This document shows positions 5,210 to 55,825 of a stretch of DNA of 64,000 nucleotides, piece by piece. Source of the DNA: Escherichia coli (GTDB lineage: Bacteria > Pseudomonadota > Gammaproteobacteria > Enterobacterales > Enterobacteriaceae); NCBI RefSeq assembly GCF_009931435.1, contig NZ_CP043414.1, one strand, 5' to 3'. Numbering within the stretch: the stretch's first letter is position 1; every line of letters begins with the position of its first letter. A program made the position numbers and the translations under genes. The notes under the pieces are model-generated. The model did not search any database. It had not been told where the DNA came from and saw only the letters and a program-made list of their open reading frames with translations.

Positions 5210-6502
5210 ATGCGCTATAATGGTTTAAATAATATGTTTTTCCCTCTTTGCCTGATTAACGATAACCACCCTGTCACAAGTCCATCACATACAAAGAAAA
5301 CAGAATCAGATAATTATAGCAAACATCATAAAGACACGTTAATTGACAATAAAGCCCTCTCTCTTTTCAAAATGGATGATCATGAAAAAGTGATAGGCTT
5401 GATTCAGAAAATGAAAAGAACTTATGATACTTTACCATCAGGAAAAATCACTAAAGAAACGGACAGGAAAATTCATAAATATTTTATAGATATAGCTTTA
5501 TACGCAAGTAATAAATATGACGATAGAATTACGAGAAGAGTTTACCTTAATAAAGATAAGGAAGTGTCAATTAAGGTAGTGTATTTTATAAATAATGTCA
5601 CTGTCCATAATAATACTATCGAAATCCCACAGACAGTAAATGGTGGTTACGATTTTTCACACCTTAGCCTGAAAGGTATCAGGATTAAAGATGAAGATTT
5701 ATCCAATTCGGATTTTGCAGGTTGCAGACTACAAAATGCTATTTTCCAGGGCTGTAATATGTATCAAACGAATTTTAATTTTGCCATAATGGAAAAAATA
5801 ATTTTTGATAATTGTATTCTCGATGACTCAAATTTCGCTCAGATAAAAATGACTGACGGAACTCTAAATGCATGCTCCGCTATGCATGTTGAATTCTTCA
5901 ATGCAACAATGATTAGAGCTAAAATTAAAAATACCTTCCTTGACTATTCAAATTTTTATATGGCGTACATGGCTGAGGTGAATCTTTATAAAGTAATAGC
6001 GCCATATGTTAATTTATTTAGAGCCGACCTTAGTTTCTCTAAACTCGATTTAATTAACTTTGAACATGCTAATCTTTCTCGCGTCAACCTGAACAAAGCA
6101 ACCCTCCAGAATATAAACTTAATTAATAGCAAACTCTTTTTTACGCGGCTGACAAATACGTTCCTCGAAATGGTTATATGTACCGATTCTAATATGGCTA
6201 ATGCTAATTTTAATAATGCCAATTTAAGCAATTGCCATTTCAACTGTTCTATTTTAACAAAAGCCTGGATGTTTAATACCCGTTTCTATCGGGTTAATTT
6301 CGATGAGGCTATCGTCCAGGGAATGGGCATATCCATTCTCCGTGGGGAGGATAATATTCCCATTAATAGTGATATCCTGATAACACTACAGCAACTCTTT
6401 GAAGAGGATTGTGCCACTCATACTGGCATGTCACAAACTGAGCATAATATTCAGGAAGTGTCTATGAATACCACTGAAGATACTATGCAATACGCAGATT
6501 GA
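5210..6502 (+). CDS. yjcF: Pentapeptide-repeat protein, 430 aa, AT-rich gene
   Basis: 430 aa; long run of pentapeptide-like repeats (…SNSDFAGCRLQNAIFQGCNMYQTNFNFAIMEKIIFDNCILDDSNFAQ…); position and size match K-12 yjcF; markedly lower GC than neighbours. Confidence 0.8.
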   Translation: MRYNGLNNMFFPLCLINDNHPVTSPSHTKKTESDNYSKHHKDTLIDNKALSLFKMDDHEKVIGLIQKMKRTYDTLPSGKITKETDRKIHKYFIDIALYASNKYDDRITRRVYLNKDKEVSIKVVYFINNVTVHNNTIEIPQTVNGGYDFSHLSLKGIRIKDEDLSNSDFAGCRLQNAIFQGCNMYQTNFNFAIMEKIIFDNCILDDSNFAQIKMTDGTLNACSAMHVEFFNATMIRAKIKNTFLDYSNFYMAYMAEVNLYKVIAPYVNLFRADLSFSKLDLINFEHANLSRVNLNKATLQNINLINSKLFFTRLTNTFLEMVICTDSNMANANFNNANLSNCHFNCSILTKAWMFNTRFYRVNFDEAIVQGMGISILRGEDNIPINSDILITLQQLFEEDCATHTGMSQTEHNIQEVSMNTTEDTMQYAD

Positions 6503-6592
6503 GATTAAGCCGAAGAATAGCCAATGAATTGACTTTAAAAGAGAGATACTCACGGACTTCTGACTTATTTATTTTAGAATCATGAATGTTAG

Positions 6593-6648
6593 CCCGAGGT
6601 AATCTGAAAAAGGTGCAAAAGATTGCACCTTTTTCAGATTACCTCGGG
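6593..6648. terminator. Perfect 26-bp stem hairpin between convergent yjcF and yjcE
   Basis: cccgaggtaatctgaaaaaggtgcaa / aaga loop / ttgcacctttttcagattacctcggg; arms exactly complementary. Confidence 0.6.
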
Positions 6649-6669
6649 CCTGGTTACGTCGCTTTCGGC

Positions 6670-8319
6670 TTACTGATTTTCCTCAATCAGCAATGCTTCA
6701 AGCAAATCGAGATCGTGCAGTAATTTTTGCAGCGTTTCATTGCTGATCTCCCGCGTGGCGCGCAGGTGGTACAGTTCAGCACGTTCAGAACGCAATGCCG
6801 CCAGACGGAAGCGACGCTCAAGGTTCTCTTCCTGCACGGAACTTTCAACGTCGTTACGTCCATCGGCGCGACGACGCAGGTTACCAATGACGCGAGAACT
6901 GACCTCCGTGAGCAGCTGGTTATCGATATTCTCTTCGGTATCCGCCGCCAGACGCTCCTCCATTTTCTGGATTGCCACAATCGCCACTTCTGCCGTTGCC
7001 GCTCGCGCAATACGCTCCTCTTTCAACTGCTGCGAATGGTCTGCGACTTCAATGTGTTGCAGCAGAATGGGCAACATCACCACGCCGACAAACAGCGAAA
7101 AGAGAATGACGCCAGCCGCCAGGAACACCAACTCATAGCGCGCCGGGAAGACGTTGCCATCCGGCAAGAGTAGCGGGATAGAGAGCACACCGGCTAGTGT
7201 GATCGCCCCACGCACCCCGGCAAAAGACGCAATCAGGATTTCTCGTGTGGTCCACGAACCAAACTCCATCGGCTTCTTCTTCAGGAAACGGTTGCTGAAC
7301 TTTTTCATCGTCCACAGCCAGCCAAAACGGACCAGCATCAGCGCCGCATAAATCAGAATGATATCGGTAAACAGCATCCAGATTTCGACGTTAGGGTCGA
7401 TTTCTGCCGCCATCAGCGACGTCTCCAGAATACCCGGCAGCTGCAGACCTAACAGCAGGAACACCATGCCGTTAAAGACAAATTCCAGCATCGCCCAGGT
7501 GCTGTTTGCGCGCAGGCGCATTGCCAGCGGCGCACGGCGCATCACACCGGAGCGGGTGATGGTCATCCCGGCGGCAACCGCAGCGAGGATGCCGGAAACG
7601 CCAATATGTTCGGCAATCAGATAAGAAGCGAATGGCAGCAAGAACAGCAGAACAATCTGCGTCGCGGGTTCATCACCGCCCCAGCGGCTGAGGAATCGCA
7701 GCGAACGACCATACAGCCAGCTCACCACAAAACCGGCGAGAATACCGCCTATTGCCACTTTCATAAATTCCACCGTTGCACCGCCGACGGTGAAGATCAT
7801 CGTCCCCATCGCCACTGCCACAGCAAACTTTAATGACACCAGGCCGGAGGCGTCATTCATCAACGCTTCGCCCTGCAAAATACCCATGATTTTTTTCGGG
7901 ATGCGCCCTTCGCCAACAATACCGGAAAGCGCCACAGCATCGGTCGGAGAAAGCACCGCCGCCAGCGCAAAGGCGGGAATCAGCGGAATGCCCGGCACCA
8001 CCCAGTAAATAAGGAAGCCAATGCCAACCACGGTGACCACCACCAGCGCCAGCGCGAGGCCGAAAATCTCCCGACCATGTTCGAGAAATTCACGGGTCGG
8101 CGTTTTCCAGCCATCTGCGAACAGCAACGGCGGGATAAACAAGACTAAAAAGAGTTCAGGATCAAACTCCACATGCAAACCAAACGTCGGCCACGCCAGT
8201 AGCGCACCGATGGCGATTTGCATAAGCGGAAGCGGGATCTGAAAGGGCATGACACGAGTGACCACCCCGGACAGCGAGACCACGAGGGTCATTATCAGTA
8301 TGGTGAAGAAGATTTCCAT
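6670..8319 (-). CDS. yjcE: Na+/H+ (cation/proton) exchanger, CPA1 family, 549 aa
   Basis: 549-aa polytopic membrane protein with hydrophilic C-terminal tail; synteny with K-12 yjcE. Confidence 0.9.
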   Translation of the reverse strand: MEIFFTILIMTLVVSLSGVVTRVMPFQIPLPLMQIAIGALLAWPTFGLHVEFDPELFLVLFIPPLLFADGWKTPTREFLEHGREIFGLALALVVVTVVGIGFLIYWVVPGIPLIPAFALAAVLSPTDAVALSGIVGEGRIPKKIMGILQGEALMNDASGLVSLKFAVAVAMGTMIFTVGGATVEFMKVAIGGILAGFVVSWLYGRSLRFLSRWGGDEPATQIVLLFLLPFASYLIAEHIGVSGILAAVAAGMTITRSGVMRRAPLAMRLRANSTWAMLEFVFNGMVFLLLGLQLPGILETSLMAAEIDPNVEIWMLFTDIILIYAALMLVRFGWLWTMKKFSNRFLKKKPMEFGSWTTREILIASFAGVRGAITLAGVLSIPLLLPDGNVFPARYELVFLAAGVILFSLFVGVVMLPILLQHIEVADHSQQLKEERIARAATAEVAIVAIQKMEERLAADTEENIDNQLLTEVSSRVIGNLRRRADGRNDVESSVQEENLERRFRLAALRSERAELYHLRATREISNETLQKLLHDLDLLEALLIEENQ

Positions 8320-8470
8320 GCGTTCCCTGTTTGCGATGTTTTTTTATGATCTGAGAAAGGCGTTATGCCTGAATTCTCATTTTTTCAGAATATCGCAAAA
8401 GCTCACACAATGTGCGGAGAAAATAAAAACGGGCAGCCATTGCCACCCGTTTTCAGAATCTTATTAAAGC

Positions 8471-13594: not shown

Positions 13595-14956
13595 CTACAG
13601 TTTGATTGTAATCTGAGTTCCCACAACCCAGGCGTCGTCGATTTCACTCACCCCACCGGGATCAATCAGCAACTGCACATTGGGTCGCAATGTTAACCAC
13701 GGCGTCACCACAAAACTGTAATGCAATTCTGCCGCATACTCAGCGTCTCTTACTGGCGTCCAGGCGGGATTATCATAATCATCAAGACCCTTTTTATCAT
13801 TGAGCAATTGCGCCCGTCTGGCTACTTTACTGTTTTCGTGCATTTTGCTGACGCCAAAGCCAATGTAATCCTGCCCCCGACCGGAAAATGGCCCTTTATA
13901 AATAGCGCCAATTTGCGTCTGGTAATCCATTGTCGCAGTATCCCGATCATTCATCGCCAGATGCCAGAACAGAGAAAGGCCACCACGAGGAGAACGGGGA
14001 TCAGCAGTCACTTGCTGGAGTAAGTAGATCCAGCCACCGTAACGCCCATCGTGAGTCGCCGGGGGACGTTGGCTCGTAACGTAGTCATCGCCTTCTGCAT
14101 CCTTCAGGACGTCACTGGCTTTTGCTGTGTTATACCAGGCTCCTACTTTCCAGGCACCCGGAAGTTTATTCGCACCCAGCGTTGGTGTATACCCAAATTC
14201 CATAAGGTACATATTTCCTAATCTTCCAGTATTATCCAACTGGAAACTGCCGCTTCGCGTCGCATAATTTGGGTTATACATAAACGCGCCGGTCTGCAAA
14301 TAAACTTGCGGTGTAAAATTATAACGTAACCTGGCCCCCCACTGACCAATCGGTGTGTTATACCAGACTCCCGCACCATGACCTGCCAACGAACCACAGA
14401 GGGAAAGGTTCTGGAAATAACAACCATTGTTATCGAAGTCTTCGCCAACCGGCATTAATCCTAACTTTAAATCAATCGTTTTTGCATACCATGATTGACG
14501 ATACCAGAATTGCGCGGCATGCCAGGTTTGACCCCGGCCATAGTTACTGTTTACCGTCGAGCCAATCACTGGGGCTCGAGGATCCTGAATTCTGTCGCTG
14601 GTAAGATCGCGGCCGTTACGATCGATAACAGAGACTTTAAACTCTCCATCCGTGATACCCGCAATTTTTTGCAGATCAAAATCGGCACCGATAATATACT
14701 GGTCGCTATATCGCGCCGTCCGATCCTTGTTATAACCGCCTGAAATATTCGATGTCACCATCGAGCCATATTCCAGAGTAAAATCATATCCTTTGTTTTT
14801 TAACTCACTACGCACTCCATTCCAATCTCCAGCCATATATTTTCCGGTTGAGGAAAAAGGTAACTCATTGGCTAACGAACCAAATGGGAACATCAGTATC
14901 ATCAGGAAAATATAATTTTCCCGTATAGAATGATCCATATTATTTATCCTTTGCAA
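13595..14956 (-). CDS. Accessory island gene 1: outer-membrane porin-like protein (OprB/carbohydrate-selective or OprD-like; family uncertain), 453 aa or shorter
   Basis: Signal-peptide-like N-terminus (…FLMILMFPFGSLA|NELP…); mature part rich in Gly/Tyr/Asn/aromatic residues with alternating hydrophobicity typical of beta-barrel porins; N-terminal GDWNGVRSELKNKGYDF…NISGG resembles the OprB-family start as I recall it. True start may be the internal MDHS. Confidence 0.6.
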   Translation of the reverse strand: MQRINNMDHSIRENYIFLMILMFPFGSLANELPFSSTGKYMAGDWNGVRSELKNKGYDFTLEYGSMVTSNISGGYNKDRTARYSDQYIIGADFDLQKIAGITDGEFKVSVIDRNGRDLTSDRIQDPRAPVIGSTVNSNYGRGQTWHAAQFWYRQSWYAKTIDLKLGLMPVGEDFDNNGCYFQNLSLCGSLAGHGAGVWYNTPIGQWGARLRYNFTPQVYLQTGAFMYNPNYATRSGSFQLDNTGRLGNMYLMEFGYTPTLGANKLPGAWKVGAWYNTAKASDVLKDAEGDDYVTSQRPPATHDGRYGGWIYLLQQVTADPRSPRGGLSLFWHLAMNDRDTATMDYQTQIGAIYKGPFSGRGQDYIGFGVSKMHENSKVARRAQLLNDKKGLDDYDNPAWTPVRDAEYAAELHYSFVVTPWLTLRPNVQLLIDPGGVSEIDDAWVVGTQITIKL

Positions 14957-15060
14957 TCCGAATATAACATTCAGAGAAGCGCTACTGGCAAATATTTCTT
15001 AATGCTGGTGAAACACAGAAATTCTCTGGCAGGCCGATCCTTTCTTCCCGGTCAGTACGG

Positions 15061-16527
15061 CTACGGCGAAAGCTCTTCCAGTGATTTTCCCTTCGTTTCA
15101 ATAGCGAACAAATAGGTAACCAGGCCGCCTATTAACGCGATGACTGCGAACACAATAAAAACAAAGCGGATCCCAAAACCAGAAACAATGAATCCCACCA
15201 GCAACGGTCCAACGGAAGAGCCAGCCCGCAACCAGGCACTGGAAAATGCCGTTCCAATCGCTCTCAGGCGAGTGGGGTATAGCTCTGCAGAGTAGAGATA
15301 AAGAGAGAAGGCAATGGTCTGGAGAATGGCATACGTCATACTACCGAAAATAAGGATTTCAATGGCAGATTTGGCTCCGAAAATACAAAGAGTCACTAAC
15401 GGGATAATGGCCAGTAAATAAGCCCAGGTATACCAGCATTTTCTTCCAATACGATCGATAAGCAGTGCACAAATTACCGACGCAAAAACTCCACAGGAGG
15501 AAGTAATCCAACCATAAGCCAGACTGGTTTCCAGTGGTAAGTGAAAAAGCGTTTTATACATGGTAGGAAACCAGGTGATCATACCATTGTTCACCGTATA
15601 AACGGTCAGCCATAGTCCCCATAACATAAACGTGCGTGATTTATAGATGCCGGAAAATAGTTCTTTTACGCCACCTGCAGGTTCCTTTTGCACAACTGCA
15701 GGATTAATCACCGGCTCAGGTAATTCCATTCCTCGCTGCAGCGCTTCTTTCTCAAACGCCGCAACGACTTTCTCAGCCTGAACATGGCGACCTTTCGCTG
15801 TTAACCAGCGTGGAGACTCAGGCATTAACCAGCGTAACGGAACCGTCAATGCCGAAGGGATAAGACCTATCAAAAACATCACTTTCCAGCCGTAAAGCGG
15901 AACAAGAAAATAGCCTACAAGACCAGCAAACATCATACCGATCGGAAAAATCACCTCGTAGAGTAAAAAAAAGCGGCCACGTTTTTTTGCTCCGATAAAT
16001 TCATTGATATAAGCGCTGGCAACCGGAACTTCTGCCCCTATTCCTAATCCTTGCAGGAAACGGATAACCAGAATCGACCATCCATTCCAGGCAAACAGGC
16101 AAGCGGCATCCATCGCGACGAACATCACAATGGTGATACGCAACACGCCAATGCGGCCAATTTTTTCTGCCAGAGAGCCAAAAAAGAGTGCGCCGCAGAG
16201 CTGCCCAACATAGCTTGCGGCAATGATCAGCCCGATGAAGGTTGGTGTTAATCCCCATTCCTGAGTGAGTTGCGGTAGCGCAAAAGCTATCGCGATAATG
16301 GTGTAAGCATCAAAGAATGTCGATAAACCCACCACTACACGAATAGCTAAAAGACGCCTGGTGACAGGGAGTCGTTCGAGCCTGGCAAGCAGCGTTGCGG
16401 GATCGCCTTCCCGCGGACTGGCAATAATACTTTCAGAAGTAATAACCTGAGTTGACATAGCGATATCCTGTTGATTGATTCGCAAGACAACGAACTGCGC
16501 CAAACCCAGCGGCTGGCAGCTATTCAC
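15061..16527 (-). CDS. Accessory island gene 2: MFS transporter (sugar-porter / aromatic-acid:H+ symporter-like), about 465-488 aa
   Basis: 12-TM profile; MFS signature motifs (…GRIGVLRITI…, …LMPESPRWL…). Track start is GTG at 16527; MSTQVITSES at about 16458 is an alternative start. Confidence 0.8.
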   Translation of the reverse strand: MNSCQPLGLAQFVVLRINQQDIAMSTQVITSESIIASPREGDPATLLARLERLPVTRRLLAIRVVVGLSTFFDAYTIIAIAFALPQLTQEWGLTPTFIGLIIAASYVGQLCGALFFGSLAEKIGRIGVLRITIVMFVAMDAACLFAWNGWSILVIRFLQGLGIGAEVPVASAYINEFIGAKKRGRFFLLYEVIFPIGMMFAGLVGYFLVPLYGWKVMFLIGLIPSALTVPLRWLMPESPRWLTAKGRHVQAEKVVAAFEKEALQRGMELPEPVINPAVVQKEPAGGVKELFSGIYKSRTFMLWGLWLTVYTVNNGMITWFPTMYKTLFHLPLETSLAYGWITSSCGVFASVICALLIDRIGRKCWYTWAYLLAIIPLVTLCIFGAKSAIEILIFGSMTYAILQTIAFSLYLYSAELYPTRLRAIGTAFSSAWLRAGSSVGPLLVGFIVSGFGIRFVFIVFAVIALIGGLVTYLFAIETKGKSLEELSP

Positions 16528-52213: not shown

Positions 52214-53104
52214 ATGGCAATGGTCCAACCGAAATCGCAAAAAGCACGTTTGTTTATTACTCATCTGCTACTGCTACTTTTTATCGCGGCGATTATGTTC
52301 CCGCTGCTGATGGTCGTCGCTATCTCTCTGCGTCAGGGGAACTTCGCGACTGGTAGCCTGATCCCGGAACAAATCTCCTGGGATCACTGGAAACTGGCGT
52401 TAGGTTTTAGCGTTGAACAGGCTGATGGGCGCATTACGCCACCGCCGTTCCCGGTACTGCTGTGGCTGTGGAACTCAGTAAAGGTCGCCGGAATTTCCGC
52501 GATTGGCATTGTTGCGCTCTCCACCACCTGCGCCTACGCTTTCGCCCGTATGCGCTTTCCTGGTAAAGCGACACTGCTGAAAGGCATGCTGATTTTCCAG
52601 ATGTTCCCGGCGGTGCTTTCACTGGTAGCGTTGTATGCGTTATTTGATCGTTTGGGTGAGTACATTCCATTCATCGGCCTGAATACTCACGGCGGCGTAA
52701 TCTTCGCGTACCTGGGGGGGATTGCGCTGCATGTCTGGACCATCAAAGGCTATTTCGAAACCATCGACAGTTCGCTGGAAGAAGCGGCGGCGCTGGATGG
52801 TGCAACACCGTGGCAGGCCTTCCGCCTTGTCCTGTTGCCGCTGTCAGTGCCGATTCTGGCGGTGGTGTTCATCCTGTCGTTTATCGCTGCCATTACTGAA
52901 GTTCCGGTCGCGTCGTTGTTACTGCGTGACGTAAACAGCTACACCCTGGCCGTGGGAATGCAGCAATACCTCAACCCGCAAAACTACCTGTGGGGTGACT
53001 TTGCCGCCGCTGCCGTGATGTCTGCATTACCGATCACCATCGTCTTCTTGCTGGCTCAACGCTGGCTGGTCAACGGACTGACGGCAGGTGGTGTGAAAGG
53101 TTAA
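52214..53104 (+). CDS. malG: Maltose ABC transporter permease MalG, 296 aa
   Basis: [44 protein letters not shown]…; EAA-loop permease. Confidence 0.95.
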
Positions 53105-53174
53105 AGATGTTGTTCTGCCAATGTTATGCCGCTACACCCTCAACTTACGTTATCCCAACTTGTGACTGTTATTC

Positions 53175-53199
53175 GGCGCTCTATGGAGCGCCTTTTTTT
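53175..53199 (+). terminator. Intrinsic terminator downstream of malG
   Basis: ggcgctc-tatg-gagcgcc followed by ttttttt; the T-run overlaps the psiE stop codon on the other strand. Confidence 0.7.
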
Positions 53200-53608
53200 A
53201 CTCCCGCTTCAGCCGTTTCGAATTACACAGCCATAAGGTGATCACCAGTAGCAGGATCGCTGCCGAGTAGATCAACACATCCAGTGGTGATTTATGATCG
53301 ACGATGATCAAGCGCACAATGGCGGTGATCCCGATATAGACAAAGTAACGCAAGGGAAAGTGAAAACCGGACTGAAAGTACTTCACAATCAGCGCGATAA
53401 ATTCGAAATAGAGAAAGTAAACCACCAGCCCTTCCACCAGCTCATATTTGCTGGCTTGTTCTGGCGCGAACAGCACATCAGCCAGATGCACCGTTTCTTT
53501 GCCGAGGAAGACAACCAAAATCAGGCCGAGACACAACAGGCCAAGATTGAGAACGGTCTGCAAAATGGTGGAGATAAACTCCACGCGCGGACGAGAGAGT
53601 GACGTCAT
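53198..53608 (-). CDS. psiE: Phosphate-starvation-inducible inner-membrane protein PsiE, 136 aa
   Basis: [47 protein letters not shown]…. Confidence 0.9.
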
Positions 53609-53728
53609 AGCAGTACCTCCTTCACAATGGCGAGCTTCCTGTATAACGCAAAAATGTGACGGAGATCTATATTTTTTGTGTATGTTTTGTTCAACGCCGA
53701 ATACGATTCCTGTATTCGGCGCTGCTTG

Positions 53729-55825
53729 TTAGCGGAAATTGACGCTTCGGTCGCTGGTCATGTCGTACAACTGGAACTTACGCCCAAGTTGCTGACCACC
53801 GTCACGCGTCAGCGGCGTCCAGCCAATCGCCGCACGGCTGCGTGTCGGGCCAGACGAGAAGAGATCCAACGGTACAGAGACATACACGCCTTTGGTGAAG
53901 TCCCCTTCGCCGTACTCCTCTTTCGAAACATTCGTGATCGTGGCATACCCACCCACTACCACGCCGCTGTCAAAGCGTTTGGCGATTTCCAGCGTGCCGC
54001 CTTTATCCCCTGCCAGATACTGCCCGACGCTGGCTTTCACTAACACATCCTGAGCGAAAGATGGCGTCCAGTAGGCGGTCAAATGACCAGTTTTCACGCT
54101 GTAATCGGTGAATTTCATCATATCTTTCGCACTACGCCAGTCGCGCTGTTTAACGTAGTTAGCATCCAGACCAAACGCCCAGTTGCTATCCAGCGGGCGA
54201 TACAATACTTCTGCCCCCGCGCCGCCAAACATGGTTTCGAGATAACCACCGTAGACCTGACCGTAGAAGCCGTTGCCCAGATGCTGGAAATAGTTGGCTT
54301 GCAGGTTATTCACATAGACATCATTCTGCACATACTCACGCACATGGGTACGCACGCGCGGTAAGTGCGAGTCCTGCGGCGGATTGGTGTAGTTAAACTT
54401 GTCGTAGTTGTTGGCAAGGTTAGCAAACAGGCTGCCGGTGGTCAGCAGATGGTCCGTCAGCCACAAATCTGCCGTTCCCATCACGCCCAGCTGATACATG
54501 TAAAAGTTTTCCGGGCCACCGACCGACTGGTTTAGCACCGGATCGATATGAAAATCAAAGCGTGATTTGTCGATATACCAGCCCTGCTCGGTGGACTTCG
54601 GAACCACTGGCTCGACGCGTTTTTGCGCCAGCTTCGTTTCGTGGCCCAACGGCTCTCCGGCAAGATGATTTTTCAGGCTGGCGACATCGGTTTCCGTCGT
54701 CACCTGCGGCATGTTAAGGCGATTTTCTGTAACGCGGATCGTCTTGATCCCATCCGGCAGATCGTTCATCACGATCCGATTAGCACGGATGATCCCTTCG
54801 CGCGAATCACGATATTTCACCTGCTCACCGGTGACGTACAGCGTATCGCCTTTCGTCTGGATCTGCGGATCGGCCAGTCCGGCGTTGTATTTCAACAGCG
54901 TTAACTGATTCGCCACCACCGAATGCTGCAAAATGGCATCCTGCGGCTGCGGTTGATATTGCGGACGGGCGTTATCGTTGTAGGACGGGCGTAGATCGTT
55001 AAAGTTGGTACGCAGCGTGACGCCAAACATAAAGGTGTTACCGCGTTCATAGCTAAGGTTAACGTCGGCCCAATCGGTAACGCGATAAATCGCCCCGACG
55101 TTAAACTTACTTTTTTGCTCCAGCTTCCCGGCAAAATCCTGCTGATAATTATTACCTTCATACTCCAGTTTCAGACGCAGCGGCTGCCAGGGCGTCTGGT
55201 ATTCCACGCCGCCAAACAGTGAGGCCGGACCGTGGAACATCTGGCTGCCGTCGATAGATCCCGCTTGTTTGTAGCTGTTATCGCGATAGCAATATTTGTC
55301 ACTGGCCGAACAGAGCGGATTTTTCACGTTACCGCTGGTGCCCAGATATCCCCAGCCCAGGCCGAGCGTAAAATCGAATGGCCCCCAGGCTTTGCTGGCG
55401 ACAAGATATTCCGCATCGAACAGCCCCGTACCGCCGATATCCCGCGCACCAACCGCCACCTGTGGCAGCCAGTAACTCTCTTCCCATAAACGCAGTTTGA
55501 GATCGAAGGCTTTATCTTTATACGTTTGATCACCAGAGAACGCTTCGACGCTGCTGTACTGCCGAGTGCGCACGTCGGTGTAGCGTAGCGTTGTTTCCAA
55601 CCACGGGAAGAGTTGCACTGAAGCTGAGTAATAACGGTACTGATCGTTATCGCGATAGTTCAGACTCAACTCCCCTTCCCGCGCCATGCGCGCAGTAGGT
55701 GTTTGTAATAATCCTACGCCACCGAAATCCGATTGCGACGGACCAATGGGCGCAGGATATGTTTCGCCGTAGCAAGCCGTGCTAATGCCCAGCGCCAGTA
55801 AACTAAGCAGATGTCTTTTTTTCAT
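53729..55825 (-). CDS. yjbH: YjbH (GfcD/YmcA-like outer-membrane beta-barrel lipoprotein of the yjbEFGH polysaccharide locus), 698 aa
   Basis: Signal peptide [20 protein letters not shown]; beta-rich 698-aa protein ending …NFR; synteny with K-12 yjbEFGH. Confidence 0.85.

What the first reader, a model, noticed from the sequence alone, without database searches (positions are those of the whole stretch)
53105..53197. xylE appears to be absent: malG and psiE are directly convergent
In K-12 as I recall it, the xylose:H+ symporter gene xylE lies between psiE and malG. Here malG ends at 53104 and psiE ends at 53198, separated by 93 bp containing a single hairpin terminator, so about 1.5 kb expected in K-12 is missing. 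This is a second point, besides the island, where this chromosome differs from K-12 in transporter content.
Basis: partly seen in the sequence, partly recalled or inferred. Interest (0 to 1): 0.4.

Follow-up and report, generated by a model that had tools for sequence, protein, structure and literature searches.

The report
xylE-less malG–psiE junction, ancestral and common
This chromosome lacks the xylose/proton symporter gene xylE that K-12 carries between malG and psiE, but so does a third of complete E. coli genomes and most related species, so it is an ordinary, already known gene-content difference.

Summary
malG (52214-53104, +) and psiE (53198-53608, -) converge across a 93-bp spacer, and no xylE is in the window. 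K-12 has 1,792 extra bp at this point: the xylE promoter region, xylE and its terminator. The breakpoint is a shared run of T's at 53195-53199.

The spacer is not empty. It is the malG 3'UTR and encodes the published sRNA MalH (100 of 103 nt identical to K-12). The T-tract of its Rho-independent terminator runs into the psiE stop codon.

The difference is common:
- 1,786 of 5,426 complete E. coli genomes have the same contiguous junction.
- 3,638 genomes have xylE, and every xylE+ genome listed in a spread sample splits at the same point.
- xylFGH is nearly universal (at least 5,405 genomes).

The compact junction, with hairpin, T-run and psiE stop in the same order, is also found in E. albertii, E. 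whittamii, two other Escherichia species and about 55 further Enterobacteriaceae species. xylE occupies the site only in some Citrobacter and in K. oxytoca, which carries an insertion scar. C. braakii shows what a secondary loss looks like, with cassette remnants; the window has none.

The window is closest to a cryptic clade I strain. It most likely keeps the ancestral state, and the K-12 lineage gained xylE. Known biology, low interest.

The parts
52214..53104 (+). malG, the maltose ABC transporter permease and last gene of malEFG
   Evidence: ORF. It is 100% identical in amino acids to K-12 MalG and scores 609.9 bits against NCBIfam NF008231, cut-off 261.
53097..53199 (+). Homologue of the MalH sRNA, derived from the malG 3'UTR. 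It spans the last malG codons, the stop codon, the 3'UTR and the terminator.
   Evidence: K-12 annotates malH (b4807) at the equivalent position. The alignment shows 100 of 103 identical bases, with two of the three differences in the terminator loop, and conserved blocks across genera. MalH is described in PMC8081044. Expression in this organism was not tested.
53175..53199 (+). Rho-independent terminator of malEFG/MalH: GGCGCTC-TATG-GAGCGCC followed by T7
   Evidence: Terminator scan and RNA fold. The stem is conserved from Escherichia to Enterobacter, Citrobacter and Klebsiella, while the loop varies.
53195..53199 (.). The point where K-12 and 67% of complete E. coli genomes carry the 1,792-bp xylE cassette. 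The 5-bp TTTTT is shared by both flanks.
   Evidence: blastn of K-12 against the window, junction alignment. All xylE+ genomes listed in the spread sample split at the same query positions, 200 and 196.
53198..53608 (-). psiE, the phosphate-starvation-inducible inner-membrane protein. Its TAA stop codon (53198-53200) overlaps the T-tract of the malG terminator.
   Evidence: ORF. It is 99.3% identical to K-12 PsiE and scores 288.5 bits against NCBIfam NF002767, cut-off 222.
53696..53728 (-). A 33-bp hairpin between yjbH and the psiE promoter. It replaces the 507 bp that hold yjbT and REP-like repeats in K-12. This is a second, neighbouring difference and is not part of the xylE finding.
   Evidence: blastn and sequence comparison. 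No complete E. coli genome has this junction. There is a weak match to the SdsR/RyeB terminator hairpin (Rfam RF00111, 24.6 bits, E=0.075, below the gathering score).
53729..55825 (-). yjbH, the last gene of yjbEFGH
   Evidence: ORF. It is 99.4% identical to K-12 YjbH.

Best explanation
The window carries the xylE-less form of the malG/psiE junction. malEFG transcription ends at a conserved Rho-independent terminator. The roughly 100 nt between the last malG codons and the terminator's T-tract correspond to the 3'UTR-derived sRNA MalH. The T-tract runs directly into the stop codon of the convergent gene psiE. This compact layout is most likely the ancestral one for Escherichia and for most Enterobacteriaceae. 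K-12, together with E. coli phylogroups A and E (strains identified here), B1 (B1A per PMC6896753) and C (inferred), carries a self-contained 1.8-kb insertion at the T-tract, made of the xylE promoter region, xylE and a terminator. The source organism is closest to a cryptic clade I Escherichia strain, so it probably never had xylE at this site. It would take up xylose through the XylFGH ABC transporter, which is nearly universal in E. coli. Shown here: the anatomy, the exact breakpoint, the population frequencies and the outgroup states. Inferred: the direction of change (gain in the K-12 lineage), MalH expression in this organism, and xylose uptake through XylFGH, which is not in the window.
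For: Anatomy and breakpoint. Frequency: 1,786 of 5,426 complete E. coli genomes have the contiguous junction and 3,638 have xylE. The two sets add up to 5,424, so xylE-less genomes do not hold the gene elsewhere. All 17 closest genomes (at least 99% identity) are xylE-less. Outgroups: 59 of 80 Enterobacteriaceae species loci have psiE and malG no more than 250 bp apart, including E. albertii, E. whittamii and two further Escherichia species. The order hairpin, T-run, psiE stop is the same across genera. xylE lies between the two genes only in 8 Citrobacter loci and in K. oxytoca. K. oxytoca keeps a 16-bp duplicate of the native psiE 3' end beside the malG terminator, which is an insertion scar. 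C. braakii, which lost xylE secondarily, retains cassette ends and ORF fragments, whereas the window has no remnant. K-12 xylE has a lower GC3 (0.54) than its flanking genes (0.63-0.67). The nearest relative, strain 2013C-4282 (99.3% over 21 kb), is a cryptic clade I strain (PMC10100065). PMC6896753 lists xylE among genes enriched in the B1A sublineage. xylFGH is present in 5,405-5,419 of 5,426 genomes. MalH.
Against: Divergence at four-fold degenerate sites between K-12 and Citrobacter is the same for xylE (identity 0.49-0.50) as for flanking core genes (0.47-0.60), and likewise between Citrobacter and K. oxytoca. This is what vertical descent from a xylE-bearing common ancestor would give, so it allows an old presence followed by repeated loss. 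The cassette is bounded by two T-runs, so a deletion between them would recreate exactly the observed junction without a scar. The junction sequence alone therefore cannot tell gain from loss. E. fergusonii, E. marmotae, E. ruysiae (by name), Salmonella and Shigella were not among the 80 loci returned. Phylogroups of the E. coli genomes were not typed here.
Confidence: 0.78

Rival explanations
1. Secondary loss. An ancestor of the window's lineage had xylE between malG and psiE, and the gene was removed cleanly by recombination or slippage between the two terminator T-runs that flank the cassette.
For: The cassette in K-12 is flanked by TTTTTTT and TTTTT, and deleting between them gives exactly the window's sequence. 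xylE is as diverged between genera as its flanking core genes, which is compatible with ancient vertical presence. Loss does occur, as in C. braakii.
Against: It would need many independent scar-free deletions, or spread of one deletion allele, across clade I, the non-coli Escherichia and about 55 other species. The one documented loss, in C. braakii, left obvious remnants. K. oxytoca shows an insertion scar. xylE has a lower GC3 than its neighbours.
Confidence: 0.18
2. xylE has moved to another place in this genome, so transporter content is unchanged.
For: Only 64 kb of the genome can be inspected, so this cannot be excluded directly.
Against: Among complete E. coli genomes the xylE-positive set (3,638) and the contiguous-junction set (1,786) add up to 5,424 of 5,426, which leaves essentially no genome with a compact junction and xylE elsewhere. 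The window has no XylE.
Confidence: 0.02
3. An assembly or sequence artefact collapsed the region.
For: None.
Against: The identical junction is present in 1,786 independently finished genomes and in other species.
Confidence: 0.01

Closest known systems
xylE-negative E. coli, such as cryptic clade I strain 2013C-4282, an O1:K1:H7 APEC strain and PCN033
   Same: The same contiguous malG-MalH-terminator-psiE junction. Strain 2013C-4282 is 99.8% identical over the 1-kb junction query and 99.3% over 21 kb.
   Different: The window also lacks yjbT on the other side of psiE, a junction that none of the 5,426 complete genomes has.
E. coli K-12 psiE-xylE-malG locus (b4030-b4032)
   Same: The flanking genes, the MalH sequence and the terminator are conserved. 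MalG is 100% and PsiE 99.3% identical in amino acids, and MalH matches at 100 of 103 nt.
   Different: K-12 has a 1,792-bp cassette at the T-tract, containing the xylE promoter region, the xylE ORF and a terminator hairpin that abuts psiE.
MalH, the 3'UTR-derived Hfq-dependent sRNA of malG (Iosub et al. 2020, PMC8081044)
   Same: Same position (it overlaps the malG stop codon and ends at the terminator), about the same length, and 97% identity to the K-12 sequence.
   Different: In K-12 the sequence downstream of MalH is the xylE upstream region. Here it is the end of psiE on the opposite strand. Processing and function in this organism are untested.
psiE-malG junction of other Enterobacteriaceae (E. 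albertii, E. whittamii, Enterobacter, C. koseri, Klebsiella and others)
   Same: The architecture is malG stop, 3'UTR, GC hairpin, T-run, psiE stop. The spacer is 81-221 bp in 59 of 80 species.
   Different: The 5' part of the 3'UTR varies between genera, and Klebsiella has about 100 extra bp.

Membership tests
XylE D-xylose:H+ symporter (NCBIfam NF007484) | An ORF in the window that reaches the equivalog cut-off of 608 bits, or is highly identical to K-12 XylE | tested here: not met
   The best tblastn hit is 22% identical, at 15067-16011. That ORF scores 63.4 bits against NF007484 and matches aromatic-acid/H+ symporter models better.
MalH sRNA (malG 3'UTR-derived) | It lies at the 3' end of malG, includes the stop codon, and ends at the Rho-independent terminator | tested here: met
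   Window 53097-53199 aligns end to end with the K-12 malH annotation. The terminator is confirmed.
MalH sRNA (malG 3'UTR-derived) | Sequence conservation with the characterised K-12 MalH | tested here: met
   100 of 103 bases are identical and two of the three differences are in the terminator loop. Internal blocks are conserved across genera.
MalH sRNA (malG 3'UTR-derived) | Production by RNase cleavage of the malEFG mRNA, Hfq binding, and regulation of ompC and ompA | not testable with these tools
   Experimental properties reported for K-12 in PMC8081044. Rfam release 15 gave no match to any sRNA family here above threshold.
Secondary deletion of the xylE cassette | Remnants of the cassette (promoter block, ORF fragments, xylE terminator) at the junction, as seen in C. 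braakii | tested here: not met
   The window spacer is colinear with the xylE-less outgroups and has no extra sequence. C. braakii retains four cassette fragments.
Secondary deletion of the xylE cassette | Sister and outgroup lineages carry xylE at the site | tested here: not met
   E. albertii, E. whittamii, two other Escherichia species and all 17 closest E. coli genomes lack it. E. fergusonii, E. marmotae and Salmonella were not sampled.
PsiE and MalG (NCBIfam equivalogs NF002767 and NF008231) | Full-length match above the curated cut-off | tested here: met
   PsiE scores 288.5 bits against a cut-off of 222. MalG scores 609.9 bits against a cut-off of 261.

The most novel reading that the evidence does not exclude
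The xylE cassette (promoter, ORF and terminator) behaves as a transferable unit. It has entered, or been exchanged into, the same terminator/stop-codon junction between malG and psiE in three separate lineages: the E. coli phylogroups that carry xylE (A and E identified here), the Citrobacter freundii complex and K. oxytoca. Transfer would be carried by recombination in the highly conserved flanks. The K. oxytoca psiE 3' duplication would be the footprint of one such event and C. braakii an example of later decay. This junction would then be a recurrent gain-and-loss site for a single transporter gene across Enterobacteriaceae.
Probability: 0.35. Interest if true: 0.25.

Novelty: already known. 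Interest (0 to 1): 0.1.

Why it matters
It matters little. xylE is a known accessory gene of E. coli, the ABC transporter XylFGH remains the general route for xylose, and the compact malG-psiE junction is annotated in well over a thousand finished genomes. There are two practical lessons. First, K-12 is the derived state at this locus, so 'missing relative to K-12' is not evidence of loss. Second, the short spacer holds a characterised sRNA (MalH) whose downstream neighbour differs between xylE+ and xylE- strains. The absence also fits the assignment of the window to a lineage outside the xylE-carrying phylogroups, most likely cryptic clade I.

Tried and rejected
- Degenerate psiE 3' remnant in K-12. 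I looked for one beside the MalH terminator, like the remnant in K. oxytoca. The local alignment scored no better than shuffles (995 of 1,000 shuffles scored at least as high), so there is no insertion scar in E. coli.
- Recent inter-genus transfer of xylE. xylE is not less diverged than its flanks at four-fold degenerate sites, so this is rejected.
- Rfam scan of 52800-53900. No family was found for the spacer, and the only hit was a sub-threshold SdsR-like match at the yjbH hairpin.
- The 33-bp yjbH-psiE hairpin. It was not found in any of the 80 outgroup loci or as a whole in any complete E. coli genome. A fuzzy regex search for it timed out.
- The MFS ORF at 15064-16527 as a substitute XylE. 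It is far below the XylE cut-off, so this is rejected.
- Identifying the source genome through the exact PsiE protein. The protein is too widespread to be diagnostic (13,334 blocks). All ten contexts returned had the long yjbH-psiE spacer, eight without xylE and two with it.
- Phylogroup typing of the 1,786 xylE-less genomes. This could not be done with the listing limits, so I relied on a few recognisable strains and on PMC6896753.

Full report
**Observation**

The ORF list places malG at 52214-53104 (+) and psiE at 53198-53608 (-). MalG is 100% and PsiE 99.3% identical to the K-12 proteins, and both pass their NCBIfam equivalog cut-offs. The 93-bp spacer holds one hairpin, GGCGCTC-TATG-GAGCGCC at 53175-53192, followed by seven T's at 53193-53199. 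The last two T's and the next A are the complement of the psiE TAA stop codon.

That segment is NC_000913.3 4240739-4242530, 1,792 bp. It comprises the 276-bp xylE upstream region, the 1,476-bp ORF and the 40-bp hairpin region between xylE and psiE. The two flanks overlap by five T's at window 53195-53199.

No XylE is encoded elsewhere in the window. The best tblastn hit is a 22%-identical MFS protein that scores 63 bits against the XylE model, whose cut-off is 608.

**What the spacer is**

K-12 annotates the sRNA gene malH (b4807) from 8 nt inside malG to the end of the terminator. Iosub et al. describe MalH as a 104-nt, 3'UTR-derived, Hfq-associated sRNA. [quoted passage not shown]

Window 53097-53199 aligns with it at 100 of 103 positions. 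Two of the three differences lie in the terminator loop. Blocks such as ATGCCRCTRCAACCCTCAAC and CCCAACYTGTGACTGT, and the terminator stem, are conserved from Escherichia to Enterobacter and Citrobacter. The spacer is therefore the malEFG 3'UTR with its sRNA, not leftover DNA. Rfam has no matching family.

On the psiE strand the same hairpin is preceded by an A-run but followed by GAAUAAC, so it is not a canonical terminator for psiE. The hairpin downstream of psiE in K-12 has the same weakness.

**How common it is**

A 1-kb query across the junction finds a contiguous match in 1,786 of 5,426 complete E. coli genomes. The rest match in two separate places, and a 401-bp query gives the same count. 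K-12 xylE is found in 3,638 genomes. The two sets sum to 5,424, so they are complementary and xylE-less genomes do not carry the gene elsewhere. Every xylE+ genome listed in a spread sample splits at the same query positions, 200 and 196, which is the T-run. One indel allele therefore accounts for the polymorphism. xylFGH is present in 5,405-5,419 of the 5,426 genomes, so the high-affinity ABC route for xylose is effectively core while xylE is accessory.

**Who the window is**

- Only 17 genomes are at least 99% identical at the junction, and all 17 lack xylE.
- The best of them, strain 2013C-4282, is 99.3% identical over 21 kb. Okuno et al. list it as a completely sequenced cryptic clade I strain (PMC10100065).
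- The first 25 kb of the window is at most 97.8-97.9% identical to any complete E. coli genome, and K-12 is 96-97% identical around the junction.
- The source is therefore most likely a clade I, or similarly divergent, Escherichia. This is an inference.

**Gain or loss**

A PsiE-seeded scan of one genome per GTDB species returned 80 loci. In 59 of them psiE and malG lie no more than 250 bp apart. These include E. whittamii, E. albertii, Escherichia sp. E1V33 and Escherichia sp. MOD1-EC7003. The order hairpin, T-run, psiE stop is the same across genera.

xylE lies between the two genes only in eight Citrobacter freundii-complex loci and in K. oxytoca. C. sedlakii has it further away.

Two loci show what a change of state leaves behind:
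- K. oxytoca keeps a 16-bp copy of the native Klebsiella psiE 3' end (TTATTCGCGTTTCAGG) stuck to the malG terminator, while its working psiE ends next to the xylE terminator. This is an insertion scar.
- C. braakii has no xylE ORF but retains the promoter-proximal 115 bp, two internal ORF fragments and the last 114 bp with the terminator. This is a decay scar.

The window has no such remnant. K-12 xylE also has a lower GC3 (0.54) than malG, malF, psiE and yjbH (0.63-0.67). González-Alba et al. list xylE among the transporters enriched in the B1A sublineage (PMC6896753). In my listings the xylE+ strains include K-12 derivatives, ETEC H10407 and O157:H7. The xylE- strains include an O1:K1:H7 APEC strain and PCN033. 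Phylogroup assignments for these strains rest on my own knowledge.

Together these results favour an ancestral xylE-less junction and a gain on the line to the xylE-carrying phylogroups (A and E identified here, B1 and C inferred).

**Caveats**

- xylE is as diverged between K-12, Citrobacter and K. oxytoca as the flanking core genes. Four-fold-site identity is 0.44-0.56 for xylE and 0.47-0.60 for malG and malF. There is thus no sign of recent inter-genus transfer, and an old vertical presence with repeated loss cannot be excluded.
- The cassette sits between two T-runs, so a deletion between them would regenerate the observed junction exactly. I found no psiE remnant in K-12.
- I put the loss scenario at about 0.2.
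- E. fergusonii, E. marmotae, Salmonella and Shigella were not among the loci returned.

**Verdict**

However, the feature is a common, annotated and published presence/absence polymorphism of an accessory transporter gene, and the window most likely shows the ancestral state. Interest is low.

The neighbouring absence of yjbT is rarer. In the window, 507 bp of K-12 sequence are replaced by a 33-bp hairpin at 53696-53728, a junction seen in none of the 5,426 complete genomes. It involves a small gene of unknown function and was not pursued further.

Noticed in passing
window 53609-53728 (hairpin at 53696-53728): yjbT is absent. K-12, clade I strain 2013C-4282, E. albertii and E. whittamii have about 507 bp here, containing yjbT and REP-like repeats, between yjbH and the psiE promoter. 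The window has only a 33-bp hairpin (CAAGCAGCGCCGAATACAGGAATCGTATTCGGCG). None of the 5,426 complete E. coli genomes, the 80 outgroup loci or the 10 contexts carrying the identical PsiE has this junction.
   Followed up: partly
window 53694-53724 (-): The yjbH-proximal hairpin matches the 3' terminator stem-loop of the sRNA SdsR/RyeB almost base for base (Rfam RF00111 positions 64-94, 24.6 bits, E=0.075, below the gathering score of 38). Matches of 23-27 nt to it occur at one other chromosomal site in 268 E. coli genomes. It may be chance or a copied terminator module.
   Followed up: partly
L068 (Klebsiella oxytoca NBRC 105695), about 8425-8440: A 16-bp duplicate of the psiE 3' end lies beside the malG terminator, upstream of an inserted xylE cassette. 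This is a footprint of xylE acquisition in K. oxytoca. K. michiganensis, K. grimontii and K. pneumoniae lack xylE at the site.
   Followed up: yes
L022 (Citrobacter braakii ATCC 51113), 6408-6797: A decayed xylE cassette. The promoter-proximal block, two short ORF fragments and the 3' end with its terminator remain in a 382-bp spacer.
   Followed up: yes
window 13595-16527 (-): Two adjacent ORFs. One is a 488-aa MFS transporter closest to aromatic-acid/H+ symporter models but below every curated cut-off. The other is a 453-aa ORF with no NCBIfam match.
   Followed up: no
window 1-25000: The uvrA, acs, actP, yjcE and pdeC region is at most 97.8-97.9% identical to any complete E. coli genome, and only 12 genomes cover at least 80% of it in one place. 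About 6% of it is unmatched in the best hits, and some relatives carry an Avs4 defence island here.
   Followed up: no
yjbH-psiE intergenic region in L006-L071: The spacer between yjbH and the psiE promoter is highly variable between genera, filled with different REP-like or other palindromic repeats. The psiE promoter block from TTGAACAAAACATA onward is conserved.
   Followed up: no
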